From a virus (lineage: Duplodnaviria; Heunggongvirae; Uroviricota; Caudoviricetes): a stretch of DNA of 9,665 bases. Both the position numbers and the translations under genes were made by a program. Shown piece by piece: positions 1 to 9,576 of the stretch. Where the stretch lies: positions 1 through 9,665 of IMG/VR virus record IMGVR_UViG_2681813316_000027. One strand, 5' to 3'. The notes beneath the pieces were generated by a model. That model searched no databases, was not told the origin of the DNA, and saw only the letters and a list, made by a program, of their open reading frames with translations. Each line of letters opens with the position of its first letter. The stretch's first letter is position 1.

Positions 1-201
1 TTACCCATTGGCGCGGCTTAAGAGCTTATTTTTGAATTCACAATGGTCACGATATAACCATCTTGCTCGCCCGTGGATAACTTTGGCTTTTGGAAGGTCT
101 CCGGACTTAATCCGGTCATAGATGAAGGTTTTACCGAATCCAGTATCGGCCATGATGAATTTCAAATCAACCAGTGAATCAGGCTGTAGTTCGTGTTGCA
201 T
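1..201 (-). CDS. xis: Excisionase / AlpA-family DNA-binding protein (66 aa), complete; integrase expected just beyond the left edge
   Basis: ORF track 1..201(-). ATG at 201..199 with GGAG upstream; stop TAA at 3..1. Core IMADTGFGKTFIYDRI...GRARWLYRD looks like the phage excisionase/AlpA helix-turn-helix family. Position at the distal end of the leftward early operon fits xis. Confidence 0.7.
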   Translation of the reverse strand: MQHELQPDSLVDLKFIMADTGFGKTFIYDRIKSGDLPKAKVIHGRARWLYRDHCEFKNKLLSRANG

Positions 202-246
202 GAGTGCTATCTCCGAATAGGGAATCGAACCTGCAAATCAGGCAAT

Positions 247-266
247 AAAAAACCGCCATCAGGCGG
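247..266 (-). terminator. Intrinsic terminator (minus strand) between the small ORF and xis
   Basis: Plus strand CCGCC(253-257)-ATCA-GGCGG(262-266) preceded by AAAAAA(247-252). On the minus strand this is a 5-bp GC stem followed directly by a U6 tract. The stop codon of the 259..426 ORF sits in the loop. Confidence 0.5.
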
Positions 267-426
267 CTTGGTGTTCTTTCAGTTCTTCAATTCGAATATT
301 GGTTACGTCTGCATGTGCCATCTGCGCCCACAGCATCCAGTGGTCATAGCAGTCGTTGATGTTCTCTGCTTCGATAACTCTGTTGAATGGTTCTCCATTC
401 CATTCACCTGTTACTCGGAAGTGCAT
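259..426 (-). CDS. Hypothetical small protein (55 aa), MHFRVTGEWNGEPFNRVIEAENINDCYDHWMLWAQMAHADVTNIRIEELKEHQAA
   Basis: Translated by hand; below the length cutoff of the ORF track. ATG at 426..424 with GGAGATGATAA immediately upstream (good Shine-Dalgarno spacing); TGA at 261..259. Same strand as all neighbouring genes. The overlapping plus-strand ORF 193..441 has no ribosome-binding site and is rejected. Confidence 0.45.
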   Translation of the reverse strand: MHFRVTGEWNGEPFNRVIEAENINDCYDHWMLWAQMAHADVTNIRIEELKEHQAA

Positions 427-438
427 TTATCATCTCCA

Positions 439-462
439 TAAAACAAAACTCGCCGTAGCGAG
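439..462 (-). terminator. Intrinsic terminator (minus strand) downstream of the 266-aa gene
   Basis: Plus strand CTCGC(449-453)-CGTA-GCGAG(458-462), extendable by two A-U pairs, preceded by ATAAAACAAAA(439-448). On the minus strand this is a stem followed by UUUUGUUUU. Confidence 0.5.
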
Positions 463-483
463 TTCAGATAAAAGAAATCCGCA

Positions 484-1284
484 TTAAGCGGCGTCGGTGA
501 ATTCAAATAAAAAACCGGCTTGCGCCGGCTCTCTCATCTTTCTGTCTACCCATGCTGATATCGATGGCGGGTGCACCTTTTCAATAGCAGCGCGAAGTAC
601 AGCTGTACGTGCCAGTTTGTCAGTAATCTCAGGAAATCGCTTCTCTGTCTTCGGTACGTTAACAGCAACATTAGTAGAATCCGCACTGGCGAACGGATAC
701 ATACCAAGAACTCTCACGTCGAGCATTCGAAGACCATGAATTTTCACTTTCAAATTACGATTGATATAAAGCTCAGTGAAAACTTCATCCATTCTCTGTT
801 CCCACCATTTAGAGCGTATGTGCCTGTGTGGGCCGCAGCATCCAATCGCCACCCATTCAAATTTGCCAGAAAGGCGTAAAAGACGTTCAATTGATTCGTC
901 GGTATGCCAGACCGGAACCGCTTTTGATTTTAGCCAATCAGGAACCAACTCAATCTGCTCGTCGTTTTCTGCCTCTGTCCCTTCGATAACGTCAGGTATA
1001 AGAAACCATTCAATTCTGCTGAACCACTTCCCAACAAAGTCGTAGAATTTTGCTCGCCTCTTACTCCAGTCTACCGGAGTGCCTTTCTTTAATGCTTTCA
1101 TCCAGTCGCTAAAAGCGCCGTTATCAAGGCGTATATCACAAGGGAACATGGCAATCTTTTTCATCTGCTCTGGTCTGGCAAATGAAACAAAAGCCCCACC
1201 ATCACGGTAAAGGGCTTTAATCAGCATATCTGTAGGGGCATGCTCATCCCCCCATATTGGGCTGCCGTGAAAGTGGATGGTCAT
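484..1284 (-). CDS. TGT-fold (tRNA-guanine transglycosylase / DpdA-like) protein, 266 aa; putative DNA or tRNA 7-deazaguanine transglycosylase
   Basis: ORF track 484..1284(-). ATG at 1284..1282 with GGGGA upstream; TAA at 486..484. Motifs in the same order as the TGT catalytic core, as I recall it: DIRLDNGAFSDW (cf. TGT TDSGGFQ), WFLIPDV (cf. IFDE), EWVAIGCCG (cf. YAVGGLAVGE), FASADST (cf. MFDCVMPTR). No C-terminal CxCxxC...H zinc subdomain, consistent with short phage DpdA-like proteins. Assignment made from motifs by eye, not from a search. Confidence 0.55.
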   Translation of the reverse strand: MTIHFHGSPIWGDEHAPTDMLIKALYRDGGAFVSFARPEQMKKIAMFPCDIRLDNGAFSDWMKALKKGTPVDWSKRRAKFYDFVGKWFSRIEWFLIPDVIEGTEAENDEQIELVPDWLKSKAVPVWHTDESIERLLRLSGKFEWVAIGCCGPHRHIRSKWWEQRMDEVFTELYINRNLKVKIHGLRMLDVRVLGMYPFASADSTNVAVNVPKTEKRFPEITDKLARTAVLRAAIEKVHPPSISAWVDRKMREPAQAGFLFEFTDAA

Positions 1285-1295
1285 ATTATCCCCAT

Positions 1296-1322
1296 ATAAA
1301 AGAAATCCCCGCGAGTGCGAGG
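1296..1322 (-). terminator. Terminator-like hairpin plus U-rich tract (minus strand) just upstream of the 266-aa gene
   Basis: Minus-strand RNA reads CCUCGC-ACUC-GCGGGG (6-bp stem with one G-U pair) followed by AUUUCUUUUAU. The stem is only favourable on the minus strand. The U tract is interrupted, so this is weaker than the other terminators. Confidence 0.35.
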
Positions 1323-1451
1323 ATTGTTATTCATTGCCGATATTTACATTTATTTCGAATATCTTTACTGGGTAATCGCCAAAGTCATATGTTTTTTATT
1401 CTGTTTTATAAGCACTACTAAGTACTGCTTATTACAAATAAGAAAAGGCTG

Positions 1452-1480
1452 AAAAAATATTTAAGGCCACAACTGTGGCC
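1452..1480 (-). terminator. Probable terminator (minus strand) immediately after the secreted-protein gene
   Basis: Plus strand GGCCAC(1465-1470)-AACT-GTGGCC(1475-1480), a perfect 6-bp GC-rich stem. On the minus strand it is followed by UUAAAUAUUUUUU. It lies 10 nt after the stop at 1491..1493. Confidence 0.4.
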
Positions 1481-1490
1481 CTAAATTTAC

Positions 1491-2189
1491 TTACGGCACT
1501 GCGTTAATCAGATTACAAATACCTCTTTTGGCAGGGTCTGAATTCAACTTCTGGAAATTGGCGTTCAACATAGCAGTGTGTAAGTGATTCTCAACCTCAA
1601 AGAATAGGTCGATTTTGCCCTCTTTGGCTGCATGTTTCTTCCAAACATTCACTTGGTCATCAGCAATACGACTGGCGCAAGTGAACAAGAACGAACTGCC
1701 TCTAGGAATGGATGTCGTGCTGTAATACTCACCATCTACTTCTACATATTTAGCTCGGAATGACTCTAAGGTTAGCTTATTGCCGTTCTTGACCGACTTA
1801 ACTTCTGCCTTACTTGTTTCTTCCTGCTCTTCAGAATGTTTCTGCGTCGACGTGGGTATCTCATTGGCCGCTGTTACGCTGACTGAACTCCCCAAACCTT
1901 TGAGGCCATTAATTTGGATAAGATAAGCCAGCTCCAGAGCCTTATTATCAGTGAGTTTTCCACGCATATTTACCCACTGACGTTGAACCATTTTTATGGT
2001 GTCTGCGTTCTCTGGGTTTTCTTTGAGGGCACTAGAATAGGCAGAGCTAAGCTGTTCGTCTAATTTTGACAGACGTTCGTTATCGCAGATTTTATGTTCG
2101 ATTGCTGTCGAAGCCTTTTGGCAGTCAAAGCTGGCTGCAAATGCACCCGGCGATGCCACTAACAATGATGCCAGTAGGATATTTTTCAT
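1491..2189 (-). CDS. Secreted protein with N-terminal DUF1311/LprI-like domain (232 aa) and an unrecognised C-terminal domain
   Basis: ORF track 1491..2216(-). I prefer the internal ATG at 2189..2187 because GGAGTGAAT sits directly upstream, whereas the ATG at 2216 has no ribosome-binding site. N-terminus MKNILLASLLVASPGAFAAS is a typical Sec signal peptide. The mature N-terminus FDCQKASTAIEHKICDNERLSKLDEQLSSAYSSAL...QRQWVNMR fits the C..A.T..E..IC...L..LD..L...Y ... Q..W..R pattern of the LprI/DUF1311 family. Flanked by about 130 and 200 bp of AT-rich non-coding DNA. Confidence 0.6.
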   Translation of the reverse strand: MKNILLASLLVASPGAFAASFDCQKASTAIEHKICDNERLSKLDEQLSSAYSSALKENPENADTIKMVQRQWVNMRGKLTDNKALELAYLIQINGLKGLGSSVSVTAANEIPTSTQKHSEEQEETSKAEVKSVKNGNKLTLESFRAKYVEVDGEYYSTTSIPRGSSFLFTCASRIADDQVNVWKKHAAKEGKIDLFFEVENHLHTAMLNANFQKLNSDPAKRGICNLINAVP

Positions 2190-2319
2190 ATTCACTCCAT
2201 AAATACAAAAGCGCATTACTATAGCACTTAACCGATCGCTTATCTCGCCCGTTCGTCATTCTTATCTAACCAGAACATGCGGCTGCCACAGCACATGTCG
2301 AGGATCGCTGCATGTCCAG

Positions 2320-2487
2320 TCACCGGTTGCCTCCTTTGCGCAACATCGCATTCAGATATTTGTTGTCATTAACAGAACCGAAACTCTTTCTCTTAAGCAA
2401 TTCCTCTCTCGATGGCATTGGCTTTACGCGTTGGCGAATAATCATTTCTGCCGGAAGAATGCCGGGATTGTATGCAAGTCCTCTCAT
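2320..2487 (-). CDS. Hypothetical small protein (55 aa), [55 protein letters not shown]
   Basis: ORF track 2320..2520(-). The first two in-frame ATGs lack a ribosome-binding site. The ATG at 2487..2485 is preceded by GAGGAA, which overlaps the stop of the upstream 98-aa gene. Confidence 0.5.
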
Positions 2488-2807: not shown

Positions 2808-3314
2808 TTAAATTGCGTGAATAGCGTGACGAGGGAAGGGGAGAGTTACTGGTGCAAAGGGTATATCGTCGTCAAAATCCATCGGAGGTTCGTTGTGTTG
2901 TGCTGGTGATGATTGCTGCTGTGGCTTCTGTGATTGCCTGCTGGCTGCTTGTTGTTTGCTGTCGCCAATGCCGCCAAGCATTTGCATCACGCCATTAATT
3001 CCGACATGAACCTCGGTTGTGTAACGGTCTTGCCCTGACTGGTCTTTCCACTTTCTGGTTCTCAGCATTCCCTCGAAATAAATCTGATCACCTTTTTTCA
3101 CATACTGCCCCACGACCTCAGCCAGTTTCCCGGATACAGCAACACGATGCCATTCAGTCAATTCCTTTTGCTCGCCAGTATTTTTATCTCGCCATTGTTC
3201 TGACGTGGCTATTGTCAGGTTAGCGAACGCTGTTCCTGATGGTGAGTATCGAACTTCCGGGTCTTGTCCTACCCGACCAAGGATAATCACCTTATTTATC
3301 CCGCGAGAACTCAT
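2808..3314 (-). CDS. ssb: Single-stranded DNA-binding protein (168 aa)
   Basis: ORF track 2808..3323(-). N-terminus [29 protein letters not shown] matches the conserved SSB OB-fold start. Gln/Pro/Gly-rich linker and acidic C-terminal tail DFDDDIPF. Preferred start is the ATG at 3314..3312 after GGTGGAG; the GTG at 3323 is an upstream alternative. Confidence 0.9.
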
Positions 3315-3778
3315 TTGCTCCACCTCTTGCCAGTTTTTATGTTGCTTATAATTGATTGAGATACACCCATGTCTTTTGCTATCTTGTACTGACTCTCTTT
3401 TTCAGAGAGTCTTTTCCTAATTTCTATAACCTGCCACTCTGTTAATTTTGCACCATGATGAGCATGACCTTTCTTGGCTCCACGATGCCTTCCTTTTGCT
3501 ATCTTGTCGTCCATGTTTTCTTGCGCGCTACCTAAAAAGAGATGTTCAGGATTAACGCAGCATGGGTTATCGCATTTGTGGCAAACCATCTTCCCAGATG
3601 GAATGGGGGAGTGATAAAGCTCAAAAGCAACCCGATGAGAAAGCATTGTTACGCCAAATGCTACAAATTTTGTGTATCCTCCTTTGTTTTTTGAATAGGT
3701 AGACTCCCAGCAACCTGTTGTTTCATTAACTTTGTAGCTGGACTCGAATCTTTTAATAATTCCGTCCAAGTGAGACAT
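3311..3778 (-). CDS. HNH endonuclease (155 aa), homing-endonuclease-like
   Basis: ORF track 3311..3778(-). HNH core ...[58 protein letters not shown]... with a C-terminal basic helix-turn-helix-like tail. Its stop overlaps the ssb start (ATGA) and its start directly abuts the stop of the annealing-protein gene. Confidence 0.85.
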
Positions 3779-5456: not shown

Positions 5457-6080
5457 CTATGCGACCTCGGAAGGAAGTCCAATCATCTTATTCAAATCTT
5501 CTACCCGTAAAGCAGGAAGTGCTGTACTTGCTTTATCTGCTTCTTTTGGTAGCAATTCTTTGCTTTCAGGCCAAACTTCAATAAGTCGCTTAACTGTTGT
5601 GACTGAGTTCAAAGCAGCCCATACATTTGATTCGATATCCTTTTTCTTGGCTTCAAGTTTTTGTTGCAATGCGCAGATTTCATCAAACCTTTTTGTTATT
5701 TCGTGTTCTGCGTCAAACATGCATTTATCTTTTTCTGGGGTGGGGAGCAATATATCTTCACCGTTGCCGTCTTTTCCGTATGAATGCCAGCCAACCCTTC
5801 TTCCAGATACAGTCAGATAAATCGAAGTAGAACGAACATCGCATGAGTAAAATGAACATCCCATCTTCTCAAGTTCTTCACTTATAGCTGCTAACTTGGA
5901 TGATAACCGATCCACTTCCTCAGTTTTCTTTTTACCGCCAAACGCAATAACTCTGGCGTCAAGTGCAAGCTGGTTCTTTAACTTTGTTACTTCTTCAAGT
6001 TCAGTGAAAACCCCAGACTTAATTAAAGCGTTACGAGCGATTTCCTCTTTCATTCTCGTAGTTAAGCGGATTGATGACAT
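5457..6080 (-). CDS. Hypothetical protein (207 aa), first gene after N; predicted helix-rich, no recognised family
   Basis: ORF track 5457..6140(-). Start moved to the ATG at 6080..6078 (MSSIRLTTRMKEEIARN...), which is preceded by GAGAGGAATTAAT 11 nt after the N stop. The upstream extension has no ribosome-binding site. Confidence 0.75.
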   Translation of the reverse strand: MSSIRLTTRMKEEIARNALIKSGVFTELEEVTKLKNQLALDARVIAFGGKKKTEEVDRLSSKLAAISEELEKMGCSFYSCDVRSTSIYLTVSGRRVGWHSYGKDGNGEDILLPTPEKDKCMFDAEHEITKRFDEICALQQKLEAKKKDIESNVWAALNSVTTVKRLIEVWPESKELLPKEADKASTALPALRVEDLNKMIGLPSEVA

Positions 6081-6091
6081 ATTAATTCCTC

Positions 6092-6418
6092 TCAAATAAG
6101 TGGTTTGCTGCCTAATTTCATTTTCTGGCGACCAACACAAGTCACCCCCATTTCACTGCGTGGCTTGCTGTACCATGTGCGCTGATTCTTGCGCTCAATA
6201 CGCTGCAGGTTGCTTTCAATCTGTTCGTGGTATTCAGCCAGCACTGTAAGGTCTATCGGATTTAGTGCGCTTTCTACTCGTGATTTCGGTTTGCGATTCA
6301 GCGAGAGAATAGGGCGGTTAACTGGTTTTGCGCTTACCCCAACCAACAGTGGATTTGCTGCTTTCCATTGAGCCTGTTTCTCTGCGCGACGTTCGCGGCG
6401 GCGTGTTTGTGCATCCAT
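6092..6418 (-). CDS. N: Antitermination protein N (108 aa), lambda type
   Basis: ORF track 6092..6418(-). MDAQTRRRERRAEKQAQWKAANPLLVGVSAKPVNRPILSLNRKPKSRVESALNPIDLTVLAEYH... matches my recollection of lambda N, including the arginine-rich boxB-binding motif; the C-terminal roughly 20 residues diverge. Ribosome-binding site CAGGAGAATCCAG then ATG. Confidence 0.9.
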   Translation of the reverse strand: MDAQTRRRERRAEKQAQWKAANPLLVGVSAKPVNRPILSLNRKPKSRVESALNPIDLTVLAEYHEQIESNLQRIERKNQRTWYSKPRSEMGVTCVGRQKMKLGSKPLI

Positions 6419-8350: not shown

Positions 8351-8644
8351 ATGGTTCGTGCAAACAAACGCAACGAGGCTCTACGAATCGAGAGTGCGTT
8401 GCTTAACAAAATCGCAATGCTTGGAACTGAGAAGACAGCGGAAGCTGTGGGAGTTGATAAGTCGCAGATCAGCAGGTGGAAGAGGGATTGGATTCCAAAG
8501 TTCTCAATGCTGCTTGCTGTTCTTGAATGGGGTGTCGTCGACGACGACATGGCTCGATTGGCACGACAAGTTGCTTCGATTCTCACCAATAAAAAACGCC
8601 CGGCGGCAACCGAGCGTTCTGAACAAATCCAGATGGAATTCTGA
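8351..8644 (+). CDS. cII: Transcriptional activator CII (97 aa), lambda type
   Basis: ORF track 8291..8644(+) trimmed to the ATG at 8351. MVRANKRNEALRIESALLNKIAMLGTEKTAEAVGVDKSQISRWKRDWIPKFSMLLAVLEWGVVDDDMARLARQVASILTNKKRPAATERSEQIQMEF is essentially lambda CII. Confidence 0.95.
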   Translation: MVRANKRNEALRIESALLNKIAMLGTEKTAEAVGVDKSQISRWKRDWIPKFSMLLAVLEWGVVDDDMARLARQVASILTNKKRPAATERSEQIQMEF

Positions 8645-8666
8645 GGTTATTACTGGAACTATCAAC
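8590..8666 (-). ncRNA. oop: oop antisense RNA (about 77 nt), overlapping the 3' end of cII
   Basis: Placed by homology to lambda from memory. Minus-strand terminator GCCGCCGGGCG followed by UUUUUUAUU (plus 8587-8607). Transcript start is predicted about 7 nt downstream of the pO -10. Coordinates are approximate to within a few nt. Confidence 0.6.
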
Positions 8667-8673
8667 AGGAGTC

Positions 8674-8702
8674 ATTATGACAAATACAGCAAAAATACTC
8701 AA
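8674..8702 (-). promoter_or_regulatory. pO promoter for oop (minus strand)
   Basis: Minus-strand -35 TTGAGT (plus 8697-8702), 17-nt spacer, -10 CATAAT (plus 8674-8679, overlapping the O start codon). Confidence 0.5.
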
Positions 8703-9576
8703 CTTCGGCAGAGGTAACTTTGCCGGACAGGAGCGTAATGTGGCAGATCTCGATGATGGTTACGCCAGACTATCAAATATGCTGCTTGAGGCTTATTCAG
8801 GCGCAGATCTGACCAAGCGACAGTTTAAAGTGCTGCTTGCCATTCTGCGTAAAACCTATGGGTGGAATAAACCAATGGACAGAATCACCGATTCTCAACT
8901 TAGCGAGATTACAAAGTTACCTGTCAAACGGTGCAATGAAGCCAAGTTAGAACTCGTCAGAATGAATATTATCAAGCAGCAAGGCGGCATGTTTGGACCA
9001 AATAAAAACATCTCAGAATGGTGTATCCCTCAAAACGAGGGAAAATCCCCTAAAACGAGGGATAAAACATCCCTCAAATTGGGGGATTGCTATCCCTCAA
9101 AACAGGGGAACACAAAAGACACTAATACAAAAGAAAATAGAAAAGATTATTCGTCAGAGAATTCTGGCGAATCCTCTGACCAGCCAGAAAACGACCTTTC
9201 TGTGGTGAAACCTGATGCTGCAATTCAGAGCGGCAGCAAGTGGGGGACAGCAGAAGACCTGACCGCCGCAGAGTGGATGTTTGACATGGTGAAGACTATC
9301 GCGCCATCAGCCAGAAAACCGAATTTTGCAGGGTGGGCTAACGATATCCGCCTGATGCGTGAACGTGACGGACGTAACCACCGCGATATGTGTGTGCTGT
9401 TCCGCTGGGCCTGCCAGGACAACTTCTGGTCCGGTAATGTGCTGAGCCCGGCCAAACTCCGCGACAAGTGGACCCAGCTCGAAATCAACCGTAACAAGCA
9501 ACAGGCAGTCGTGACAGCCAGCAAACCAAAACTCGACCTGACAAACACAGACTGGATTTACGGGGTGGATTTATGA
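8677..9576 (+). CDS. O: Replication initiator O (299 aa), lambda type
   Basis: ORF track 8677..9576(+). MTNTAKILNFGRGNFAGQERNVADLDDGYARLSNMLLEAYSG... matches lambda O as I recall it. Contains the ori iterons. Its stop overlaps the P start (ATGA). Confidence 0.95.
   Translation: MTNTAKILNFGRGNFAGQERNVADLDDGYARLSNMLLEAYSGADLTKRQFKVLLAILRKTYGWNKPMDRITDSQLSEITKLPVKRCNEAKLELVRMNIIKQQGGMFGPNKNISEWCIPQNEGKSPKTRDKTSLKLGDCYPSKQGNTKDTNTKENRKDYSSENSGESSDQPENDLSVVKPDAAIQSGSKWGTAEDLTAAEWMFDMVKTIAPSARKPNFAGWANDIRLMRERDGRNHRDMCVLFRWACQDNFWSGNVLSPAKLRDKWTQLEINRNKQQAVVTASKPKLDLTNTDWIYGVDL
9026..9150. repeat. ori-lambda-type replication origin: four iterons followed by an A/T-rich tract, inside O
   Basis: Iterons TCCCTCAAAACGAGGGA (9026-9042), TCCCCTAAAACGAGGGA (9046-9062), TCCCTCAAATTGGGGGA (9070-9086), TCCCTCAAAACAGGGGA (9093-9109), each an internal inverted repeat. 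The tract 9110-9150 is about 80% A+T. Confidence 0.85.

What the first reader, a model, noticed from the sequence alone, without database searches (positions are those of the whole stretch)
484..1284. Stand-alone TGT/DpdA-like transglycosylase between xis and the recombination genes: candidate 7-deazaguanine DNA-modification enzyme
The 266-aa protein carries, in the correct order, counterparts of the TGT catalytic-core motifs: LDNGAF (acid/base Asp loop), FLIPDV (substrate Asp), AIGCCG (glycine-rich strand) and FASADST (nucleophile Asp). It lacks the C-terminal zinc subdomain, which is the minimal architecture described for phage DpdA proteins that insert preQ0-derived 7-deazaguanines into DNA. 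No queC/queD/queE/folE genes are in the window, so the enzyme would have to use host preQ0. The gene is bracketed by hairpin-plus-U-tract structures on both sides (439..462 and 1296..1322), an insulated, moron-like arrangement. If active, the phage genome would carry a base modification that protects against restriction.
Basis: partly seen in the sequence, partly recalled or inferred. Interest (0 to 1): 0.7.

Follow-up and report, generated by a model that had tools for sequence, protein, structure and literature searches.

The report
Known singleton phage DpdA transglycosylase gene
This prophage gene encodes a DpdA-type enzyme of the kind that swaps guanine in DNA for a 7-deazaguanine base, but its near-identical copy in phage HK106 was already catalogued as such in 2019, so it is a correct but ordinary finding whose real activity is still untested.

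Summary

The finding is not new. The protein is 98.9% identical to HK106 gp29, which RefSeq names queuine tRNA-ribosyltransferase. Hutinet et al. 2019 list it under DpdA in their "DpdA-only" phage group.

No que, folE or yhhQ genes are in the window or in the closest complete prophage. A 76%-identical relative is fused to a Dam methylase and follows a preQ0-transporter gene.

Protection from restriction is unproven. The closest tested relative, Salmonella phage 7-11 (58% identity), carries dADG at only about 0.02% of Gs.

The flanking hairpins exist but belong to the lambda-type backbone. They are tandem terminators split by an 812-bp gene insertion that is bounded by a 16-nt direct repeat. 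Interest is low.

The parts
484..1284 (-). dpdA-like CDS: 266 aa singleton phage DpdA, a predicted DNA-guanine transglycosylase
1111..1128 (-). LDNGAF motif (residues 53-58): candidate general acid/base Asp54 plus base-stacking Phe58
   Evidence: D54 is invariant and F58 is F or Y in 63 homologs. Aligns to 9g LDSGAF. Same D-x3-F spacing as E. coli Tgt D89/F93 and bacterial DpdA D95/F99. Role inferred.
988..1005 (-). FLIPDV motif (residues 94-99): candidate substrate-binding Asp98, just past strand 4
   Evidence: D98 is invariant in 63 homologs and follows strand 91-95. It aligns 3 residues away from 9g D114, so the equivalence is inferred, not shown.
904..906 (-). His127, invariant, at the end of strand 5: candidate counterpart of bacterial DpdA His181
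   Evidence: Invariant across the window family, intermediates and the 9g family. Aligned to 9g H141. Role inferred from barrel position.
832..849 (-). AIGCCG glycine-rich segment (residues 146-151) at the end of strand 6
   Evidence: G148 is invariant and G151 nearly so. Aligns to 9g LGGLVG, which resembles Tgt VGGLAVGE.
733..738 (-). His183-Gly184, invariant, on strand 7
   Evidence: Aligns to 9g H196-G197.
673..693 (-). FASADST motif (residues 198-204): candidate nucleophile Asp202
   Evidence: D202 and S203 are invariant. Aligns to 9g D215-S216. Sits at the end of strand 8. Spacing to the preceding motifs matches Tgt D264. Role inferred.
1289..1293 (-). Shine-Dalgarno-like GGGGA, 4 nt upstream of the ATG
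   Evidence: Read directly from the sequence.
481..1292 (.). 812-bp segment present here and in HK106 but absent from lambda: the gene cassette (ORF plus 3 nt and 8 nt of flank)
   Evidence: blastn: window 233..480 = lambda locus 1..249, and window 1293..1330 = lambda locus 234..271. Three-way alignment.
465..480 (.). Copy 1 of the 16-nt direct repeat CAGATAAAAGAAATCC, at the downstream junction of the cassette
   Evidence: 2 matches against 0.03 expected. Single copy in lambda.
1293..1308 (.). Copy 2 of the 16-nt direct repeat (CATATAAAAGAAATCC), at the upstream junction of the cassette
1304..1325 (-). Backbone terminator-like hairpin upstream of the gene (9-bp stem plus U-tract)
   Evidence: -13.1 kcal/mol, z = -4.55. 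Conserved in lambda, where it lies directly next to the 446..465 hairpin.
446..465 (-). Backbone terminator-like hairpin downstream of the gene
   Evidence: -11.9 kcal/mol, z = -4.05. Conserved in lambda.
509..534 (-). The cassette's own terminator-like hairpin plus U6 tract, inside the last ~17 codons of the ORF
   Evidence: -17.2 kcal/mol, z = -4.47. It overlaps the poorly conserved, low-pLDDT C-terminal tail.

Best explanation
The gene encodes a singleton phage DpdA, a zinc-less TIM-barrel relative of tRNA-guanine transglycosylase that acts on double-stranded DNA.

Proposed mechanism, by analogy with bacterial DpdA and TGT:
1. A target guanine is flipped into the barrel pocket.
2. Asp202 attacks C1' and displaces guanine, forming a covalent enzyme-DNA intermediate.
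3. Asp54 acts as general acid/base.
4. Asp98 and His127 read the Watson-Crick edge, and Phe58 stacks on the base.
5. A free 7-deazaguanine base, most likely preQ0 made by the host QueCDE/FolE pathway, resolves the intermediate and leaves dPreQ0 (or a derivative such as dADG) in the DNA.

The gene lies in the N-antiterminated pL early-left operon with no promoter of its own. It would therefore be made early after induction or infection and would modify replicated phage DNA before packaging. The modification level is probably low and motif-restricted rather than bulk.

Shown here:
- Family membership and the barrel fold.
- Invariance of the candidate catalytic residues.
- Absence of pathway genes.
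- Linkage of relatives to preQ0 transporter, QueD and DNA methyltransferase genes.

Inferred:
- The catalytic role of each residue.
- DNA as the substrate and preQ0 as the donor.
- Timing of expression and extent of modification.
- Any protective effect.
For: Family membership:
- PHROG 887 'queuine tRNA-ribosyltransferase' at 1.4e-102. The experimentally validated 9g DpdA hits the same PHROG at 2e-98 and, like this protein, has no Pfam TGT hit.
- hhalign of the window family against the 9g family gives 96.3% probability and E = 1.9e-9, with LDNGAFS/LDSGAFS, WH/FH, IGCCG/LGGLVG, KIHG/KVHG and ADST/CDSS aligned.
- D54, F58, H127, G148, H183, D202 and S203 are invariant across both families and the intermediates.

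Fold:
- AlphaFold pLDDT 93 and pTM 0.89, with eight beta strands alternating with helices.
- In the viral structure library all 26 significant hits are unnamed or named queuine/queuosine tRNA-ribosyltransferase.

Prior classification:
- 98.9% identical to HK106 gp29 = YP_007151699.1, RefSeq product 'queuine tRNA-ribosyltransferase'.
- Listed under DpdA, with no other pathway gene, in Supplementary Data 1 of Hutinet et al. 2019.

Function of relatives:
- 9g dpdA alone in E. coli puts dPreQ0 into plasmid DNA using host preQ0.
- Phage 7-11, whose DpdA is 58% identical, carries dADG.

Genomic context of relatives:
- The 76%-identical P0006 is fused to a Dam methyltransferase and follows an overlapping Vut_1/YhhQ gene, at the same position next to xis/int.
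- A preQ0 transporter gene overlaps the homolog in Vibrio phage PS25B.1, and a VUT gene lies nearby in Pam5.
- QueD is adjacent in Caulobacter phage DMCA.
- DNA methyltransferase genes lie nearby in Serratia and Klebsiella prophages.

Reference mechanism:
- Catalytic roles in bacterial DpdA (D95, D130, H181, D256, F99) come from PMC10164549.
Against: - No activity has been measured for this protein or for HK106 gp29.
- Direct sequence links to canonical TGT failed: Pfam and NCBIfam gave nothing, profile searches against PDB sequences gave nothing, and hhalign to a shallow Tgt profile gave 0.2% probability.
- D98 does not align exactly with the 9g Asp.
- Hutinet et al. 2019 themselves say the gamma-proteobacterial singleton DpdAs form a separate cluster that may have diverged in function.
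- Another singleton-DpdA phage, Orion, has no modification, and 7-11 has only about 0.02% of Gs modified, as dADG rather than dPreQ0.
- Some E. coli copies appear frameshifted.
Confidence: 0.72

Rival explanations
1. Functionally diverged singleton. The protein keeps the DpdA fold but has a different substrate or target. It might act on tRNA or another RNA, insert a different base (preQ1, CDG or ADG), or simply excise a base as a glycosylase, rather than install preQ0 in phage DNA.
For: - Hutinet et al. 2019 note that gamma-proteobacterial singleton DpdAs cluster apart and may have diverged.
- 7-11 DNA carries dADG rather than dPreQ0, and at a trace level.
- DpdA2 enzymes are promiscuous for preQ0, preQ1 and CDG.
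- Identity to 9g DpdA is only 16-22%.
Against: - All candidate catalytic residues shared with 9g DpdA are invariant.
- Close relatives are linked to preQ0 transporters and to DNA, not RNA, methyltransferases, including a direct Dam fusion.
- 7-11 DNA does contain a 7-deazaguanine.
Confidence: 0.15
2. Cap10-like enzyme. The protein would be a TGT-fold enzyme that conjugates a deazaguanine base to a protein, as in type IV CBASS, rather than to DNA.
Against: - No QueC-like Cap9, CD-NTase or effector gene is in the window or in the closest prophage.
- PADLOC gives no hit.
- The protein shares a PHROG and an hhalign match with DNA-modifying phage DpdA.
Confidence: 0.03
3. Unrelated TIM-barrel enzyme, for example one acting on a sugar phosphate or in cofactor metabolism, whose resemblance to TGT/DpdA is only the generic barrel fold.
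For: - There is no Pfam TGT hit.
Against: - hhalign to the validated 9g DpdA family at 96% probability, with co-linear conserved motifs.
- Same PHROG as 9g DpdA.
- The viral fold neighbours that carry a name are exclusively DpdA-type proteins.
- Context of preQ0 transporter and QueD genes in relatives.
Confidence: 0.03
4. Decaying passenger gene. The enzyme would be inactive, or irrelevant in E. coli prophages, and carried along only by mosaic recombination.
For: - Some E. coli copies are split into two ORFs or truncated.
- A terminator-like hairpin sits inside the 3' end of the ORF.
- The gene is in only 82 of 5,426 complete genomes.
Against: - This copy is intact, with a good RBS.
- 66 of the 82 genome copies are at least 99% identical.
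- The catalytic residues are invariant over homologs down to 44% identity, which indicates purifying selection.
Confidence: 0.07

Closest known systems
Escherichia phage HK106 gp29 (YP_007151699.1 / AFH20717.1), a singleton DpdA of the 'DpdA-only' phage group in Hutinet et al. 2019
   Same: 98.9% amino-acid identity over all 266 residues. It occupies the same position between lambda-orf55/xis and the early-left genes. The same 1.1-kb module (window 233..1331, 97.9% nt identity) is shared.
   Different: The genes upstream of the module differ: HK106 has gp30-32, this window has an LprI-family gene. HK106 is a HK97-like siphovirus, whereas the closest prophage to this window is P22/Sf6-like. Neither protein has been tested.
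Salmonella phage 7-11 DpdA (YP_004782407)
   Same: 58% identity. Also a singleton DpdA with no preQ0 pathway genes. It is the only member of this subgroup whose phage DNA was analysed, giving dADG at 50 per 10^6 nt.
   Different: It comes from a virulent 90-kb phage rather than a temperate lambdoid. The annotated 7-11 protein is shorter at the N-terminus (234 aa).
Enterobacteria phage 9g DpdA (YP_009032326), the prototype DpdA1
   Same: Same PHROG. hhalign 96% probability. Shared invariant D, F, H, G, HG and DS motifs. Neither has a CxCxxC zinc motif. Expressed alone in E. coli it inserts host preQ0 into DNA.
   Different: Only 16-22% identity. The 9g protein has a roughly 50-aa N-terminal extension and a roughly 90-aa C-terminal extension. 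It is encoded beside FolE, QueD, QueE and Gat-QueC, and its phage replaces about a quarter of its Gs with dG+.
Bacterial DpdA (Salmonella Montevideo, PDB 7UI4) of the Dpd restriction-modification system
   Different: The bacterial enzyme is 413-436 aa with DNA-binding insertions and a structural zinc site. It needs the DpdB ATPase and sits in an 11-gene dpd cluster. None of these is present here.
Canonical tRNA-guanine transglycosylase (E. coli Tgt, Pfam PF01702)
   Different: No detectable sequence-profile similarity. No C-terminal zinc subdomain (C302/C304/C307/H333 in Tgt). The substrate is presumed to be DNA rather than tRNA.

Membership tests
Phage DpdA (9g-type; PHROG 887) | Significant profile similarity to experimentally validated members | tested here: met
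   phrog_887 at 1.4e-102 for this protein and 2e-98 for 9g DpdA. hhalign A1 vs A2 at 96.3% probability, E = 1.9e-9.
Phage DpdA (9g-type; PHROG 887) | TGT-like (beta/alpha)8 barrel fold | tested here: met
Phage DpdA (9g-type; PHROG 887) | Conserved catalytic Asp pair (acid/base and nucleophile) and substrate-binding Asp/His | tested here: inconclusive
   D54, H127 and D202 are invariant and align with 9g D72, H141 and D215. D98 is invariant in its own family but aligns 3 residues from 9g D114. Equivalence to bacterial DpdA D95/D130/H181/D256 rests on strand position and motif spacing. I could not superpose the structures residue by residue.
Phage DpdA (9g-type; PHROG 887) | Exchanges guanine in DNA for a 7-deazaguanine base | not testable with these tools
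   Needs LC-MS/MS or a guanine-exchange assay. The nearest measured relative, phage 7-11, has dADG at about 0.02% of Gs.
'DpdA-only' (singleton) phage group of Hutinet et al. 2019 | DpdA present, with no FolE, QueC, QueD, QueE, QueF, Gat-QueC or ArcS encoded by the phage | tested here: met
   None is in the window. None is in the roughly 40-kb closest complete prophage. The HK106 ortholog is listed with DpdA only. The rest of this window's own phage is not available.
Canonical TGT (Pfam PF01702) | Match to the Pfam TGT model above the gathering score | tested here: not met
   0 Pfam families even at E <= 10. The same is true of the validated 9g DpdA.
Canonical TGT (Pfam PF01702) | C-terminal CxCxxC...H structural zinc site | tested here: not met
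   The only Cys are 49, 149 and 150, and there is no CxC motif. Tgt has C302/C304/C307/H333.
Bacterial Dpd system DpdA | Encoded with dpdB (ParB-like ATPase) and the dpdC-K cluster | tested here: not met
   The neighbours are lambdoid early genes. There is no PADLOC hit.
Bacterial Dpd system DpdA | Structural zinc site and DNA-binding insertions (about 410 aa) | tested here: not met
   266 aa with no zinc motif.
Cap10 (type IV CBASS TGT-like) | Operon with a QueC-like Cap9, a CD-NTase and an effector | tested here: not met
   No such genes in the window or the closest prophage. No PADLOC hit.
Phage moron (autonomous promoter-gene-terminator cassette) | Own promoter upstream and own terminator downstream | tested here: inconclusive
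   The terminator-like hairpin 534..509 belongs to the cassette. No sigma-70-like promoter lies between 1285 and 1460 on the minus strand. The flanking hairpins belong to the backbone. The gene is a discrete inserted cassette, but it appears to depend on pL read-through.

The most novel reading that the evidence does not exclude
The gamma-proteobacterial singleton DpdAs carried by temperate phages may not be bulk anti-restriction enzymes. Using only host preQ0, or imported preQ0 in the relatives with a Vut_1 gene, they might write a sparse, motif-specific 7-deazaguanine mark.

Such a mark could imitate the self-mark of host Dpd-type restriction-modification systems. It could also act together with Dam-type methylation, as the DpdA-Dam fusion suggests, as a combined identity tag.

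A further possibility is that a prophage-expressed copy marks the host chromosome.

None of this has been tested. It is compatible with the trace dADG in phage 7-11 and with the separate clustering of these proteins.
Probability: 0.12. Interest if true: 0.6.

Novelty: already known. Interest (0 to 1): 0.22.

Why it matters
The gene shows that ordinary lambdoid and P22-like prophages of E. coli can carry a DNA 7-deazaguanine transglycosylase with no biosynthetic genes. It occurs in 82 of 5,426 complete genomes, where PGAP calls it 'hypothetical protein'.

If active, it would make phage DNA modification depend on the host queuosine pathway. That matters for restriction evasion and for sensitivity to the recently described glycosylases that target 7-deazaguanine DNA. 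It also matters for sequencing and cloning of such phages.

The practical value here is limited. The annotation can be corrected, and the open question raised in 2019 is easy to test in E. coli: are singleton DpdAs active, and on what?

The precise 812-bp insertion between tandem backbone terminators is a clear example of how single genes enter lambdoid early operons.

Tried and rejected
- Pfam, NCBIfam and PADLOC scans of the protein found nothing.
- Sequence searches against PDB with phmmer and with two profiles found only noise: the window family and a broadened profile including the 9g family. 9g DpdA itself finds no TGT in the PDB either.
- hhalign of the family profiles against E. coli Tgt alone gave 0.2-0.4% probability, as did hhalign against an 80-sequence gammaproteobacterial Tgt alignment built from genome contigs. 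The profiles are too shallow (Neff 2-3.6), so this neither supports nor refutes superfamily homology.
- Foldseek against PDB was not discriminating. Cap10 came first and DpdA 7ui4 only at rank 50, among generic TIM barrels.
- I could not obtain residue-level structural superposition on 7UI4.
- I tested whether the Nmad5 gene in the same operon co-occurs with singleton DpdA. Nmad5 is in 331 phage records. Among the rows listed it overlaps the DpdA-like set only in Vibrio phage Athena1, and it is absent from HK106. I rejected a functional link.
- I checked whether the 2025 preprint on antiviral glycosylases describes a DpdA-like defence protein. It does not. Its enzymes target DpdA-modified phages.
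- Literature searches for HK106 or for temperate-phage DpdA experiments found nothing.
- The supplement of the 2023 subfamily paper is not held.
Full report
**What is there**

The window is the early-left and immunity region of a lambdoid prophage. In order it carries:
- xis/TorI-like, 1..201 (-)
- a lambda orf55 (lambdap35)-like ORF, 259..426 (-)
- the target ORF, 484..1284 (-)
- an LprI-family gene, 1491..2216 (-)
- ssb, an HNH endonuclease and a Rad52-like annealase
- an Nmad5-domain gene, then N
- a LexA-like repressor, cro, cII and a lambda-type O gene

The target ORF is 266 aa with an ATG start and a GGGGA Shine-Dalgarno sequence.

**Identity**

Pfam, NCBIfam and PDB sequence searches find nothing. 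PHROGs gives one strong match, phrog_887 'queuine tRNA-ribosyltransferase', at E = 1.4e-102. The DpdA of phage 9g inserts preQ0 into DNA when expressed alone in E. coli (PMC6884629). It matches the same PHROG at 2e-98 and likewise has no Pfam TGT hit.

A 63-sequence alignment of the window family (A1) compared by hhalign with a 23-sequence 9g-family alignment (A2) gives 96.3% probability and E = 1.9e-9 over 164 aligned columns. The paired motifs are LDNGAFS/LDSGAFS, VWH/CFH, IGCCG/LGGLVG, KIHG/KVHG and SADST/SCDSS.

I built a merged alignment that adds intermediates from phages 7-11, PS25B.1, SPN3UB, Pam5 and DMCA. In it D54, A57, F58, G102, P124, H127, G148, H183, P197, D202 and S203 are invariant.

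**Fold**

AlphaFold2 with A1 gives pLDDT 93 and pTM 0.89. The model has eight strands alternating with helices. The invariant residues sit at or just past the C-terminal ends of strands 3 to 8.

The margin over generic barrels is small, since PdxJ scores 13.7. Foldseek against PDB is not discriminating. In the viral structure library the 26 significant hits are all unnamed or named queuine/queuosine tRNA-ribosyltransferase, with a sharp drop after them.

Direct profile links to canonical Tgt failed, so I treat that test as inconclusive. The link to TGT rests on fold and on the bridge through 9g DpdA.

The motifs are co-linear with similar spacing in three proteins:
- E. coli Tgt: D89/F93, D143, Q187, G213-G-L, M244-G, D264
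- 9g DpdA: D72/F76, D114, H141, G162-G-L, H196-G, D215
- this protein: D54/F58, D98, H127, G148, H183-G, D202

In bacterial DpdA, D95 is the acid/base, F99 stacks on the base, D130 and H181 read the base, and D256 is the nucleophile (PMC10164549). The mapping of D54, F58, D98, H127 and D202 onto these residues is an inference. I could not superpose coordinates.

**Zinc subdomain**

This protein has no CxCxxC...H motif, and neither does 9g DpdA. Bacterial DpdA and TGT keep the zinc site. I found no paper that describes it in those terms.

**Already known**

The protein is 98.9% identical to HK106 gp29. The RefSeq record names that protein YP_007151699.1 'queuine tRNA-ribosyltransferase'. Supplementary Data 1 of Hutinet et al. 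2019 lists HK106 with this accession in the DpdA column and with no other pathway gene. The same list holds the other relatives I found: SfI, PEAT2, 7-11, SE131, SEN1, SPN3UB, BTP1 and Athena1.

That paper defines a third group of 76 phages that 'encode DpdA but no G+ or preQ0 biosynthesis protein homologs'. It proposes reliance on host preQ0 or on uptake. It also notes that the singleton DpdAs of gamma-Proteobacteria cluster separately and may have diverged in function.

Of the two singleton phages analysed, Orion had no modification. Phage 7-11, whose DpdA is 58% identical to this one, had dADG at 50 per 10^6 nucleotides, about 0.02% of Gs.

Its functional consequence, protection from restriction, remains unproven, and the only available measurement suggests at most sparse modification.

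**Context**

The gene is in 82 of 5,426 complete E. coli genomes. It is always chromosomal and always annotated 'hypothetical protein'. A few copies are split.

The closest complete prophage is in E. coli 20AR0354. It is P22/Sf6-like, sits at argW/intS, and has no que, folE or yhhQ gene.

Relatives give supportive associations:
- P0006 (76% identical) lies at the same position next to xis/int in another lambdoid prophage. It is fused to a Dam DNA methyltransferase, and the gene before it, overlapping by 4 nt, is a Vut_1/YhhQ-family (preQ0 transporter) gene.
- The homolog in Vibrio phage PS25B.1 overlaps a preQ0 transporter gene.
- Pam5 has a VUT gene two genes away.
- Caulobacter phage DMCA has QueD adjacent.
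- Serratia and Klebsiella prophage homologs lie near D12-class and MT-A70 DNA methyltransferase genes.

These associations point to a 7-deazaguanine substrate and to DNA as the target.

**The hairpins and the cassette**

They are not part of the gene cassette, however.

Against lambda, window 233..480 matches lambda locus positions 1..249, and window 1293..1330 matches positions 234..271. Lambda is therefore continuous across the site. The window carries an extra 812 bp (481..1292), made up of the ORF plus 3 nt after the stop codon and 8 nt before the ATG.

The 16 nt CA(G/T)ATAAAAGAAATCC occur once in lambda and are duplicated at both junctions, at 465..480 and 1293..1308. That is 2 matches against 0.03 expected by chance.

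In lambda the two hairpins are tandem, about 10 nt apart. HK106 shares the filled arrangement over window 233..1331.

The cassette's own terminator-like hairpin (534..509, -17.2 kcal/mol) lies inside the last ~17 codons. It overlaps a C-terminal tail that is variable among homologs and has low pLDDT.

No promoter-like site precedes the gene. Expression most likely depends on N-antiterminated pL transcription, that is, early in lytic growth. This timing is an inference.

**Rivals**

- A functionally diverged singleton, with a different base or target, is the main alternative (0.15).
- A Cap10-like role lacks the required partners (0.03).
- A generic TIM-barrel enzyme is contradicted by the 9g link, the viral fold neighbours and the gene context (0.03).
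- A decaying passenger gene is contradicted by the invariant catalytic residues (0.07).

**Verdict**

The finding is already known: a near-identical ortholog has been catalogued as a singleton DpdA since 2019 and is named as such in RefSeq and PHROGs.

What is new here is minor:
- the exact insertion anatomy with its 16-nt repeat
- the DpdA-Dam fusion coupled to a Vut_1 gene in a close relative
- the recurrent methyltransferase neighbourhood

Interest is 0.22.

Noticed in passing
window 465..480 and 1293..1308; insertion 481..1292: The dpdA ORF is an 812-bp insertion relative to lambda. It is bounded by a 16-nt direct repeat (CA[G/T]ATAAAAGAAATCC) that is single-copy in lambda, where the two 'flanking' hairpins are tandem and about 10 nt apart. 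The dpdA leader (TATGGGGATAATATG) resembles the leader of the neighbouring orf55 gene (TATGGAGATGATAAATG). This suggests exchange of single genes at conserved terminator/RBS linker sequences.
   Followed up: yes
window 509..534 (-): A strong terminator-like hairpin with a U6 tract (-17.2 kcal/mol, z = -4.5) lies inside the last ~17 codons of the dpdA ORF, about 20 nt before the stop codon. Transcripts terminated there would lack a stop codon. The encoded tail (residues ~251-266) is not conserved and is predicted to be disordered.
   Followed up: partly
window 5457..6140 (-): An Nmad5-domain protein (PF18757, E = 3.8e-71; phrog_1965, function unknown) is encoded directly after N in the same pL operon. 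PGAP names it 'Nmad5 family putative nucleotide modification protein'. It is widespread (331 phage records) and is not generally linked to the DpdA-like gene. A 2025 paper connects Dhillonvirus nmad5 mutations to escape from Tmn defence.
   Followed up: partly
L091 5540..7383 (metagenome contig ERZ28588666 scaffold_78); also L092: A 76%-identical homolog is fused to a C-terminal Dam DNA adenine methyltransferase domain (460 aa). It is preceded by an overlapping Vut_1/YhhQ-family gene, in a lambdoid prophage next to xis/int. I did not find this fusion mentioned in the papers I read.
   Followed up: partly
MG640035.1 (Vibrio phage Athena1) 6656..7396 and 8351..8965: Athena1 carries both a DpdA-like gene (36% identity) and an Nmad5 gene (37% identity) about 1 kb apart on the same strand. 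It was the only phage in the listed rows with both.
   Followed up: no
window 1..2400: Terminator-like hairpins are enriched: 10 found against 2.3 +/- 1.5 expected. One follows nearly every small gene of the xis-proximal region (250..269, 446..465, 509..534, 1304..1325, 1459..1486, all on the minus strand).
   Followed up: partly
window 3311..3778 (-): An HNH/homing-endonuclease-like ORF (PADLOC HEase, 1.9e-7) sits between ssb and the Rad52-like annealase gene. The closest E. coli prophage instead has a 3'-5' exonuclease gene on the other side of ssb. This is a local mosaic difference.
   Followed up: no
window 1491..2216 (-): The gene upstream of dpdA encodes an LprI-family (lysozyme-inhibitor-like) protein with an apparent N-terminal signal sequence (phrog_4675, function unknown). 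It is followed by its own strong terminator hairpin (1459..1486) and a roughly 130-nt AT-rich spacer.
   Followed up: no
E. coli genomes, e.g. NZ_CP121087.1 1432629..1433428 (hits H122-H126): Several E. coli prophage copies of the gene match over 800 rather than 801 nt, or are truncated. They are annotated as two hypothetical proteins, which indicates frameshifted or decaying copies.
   Followed up: no
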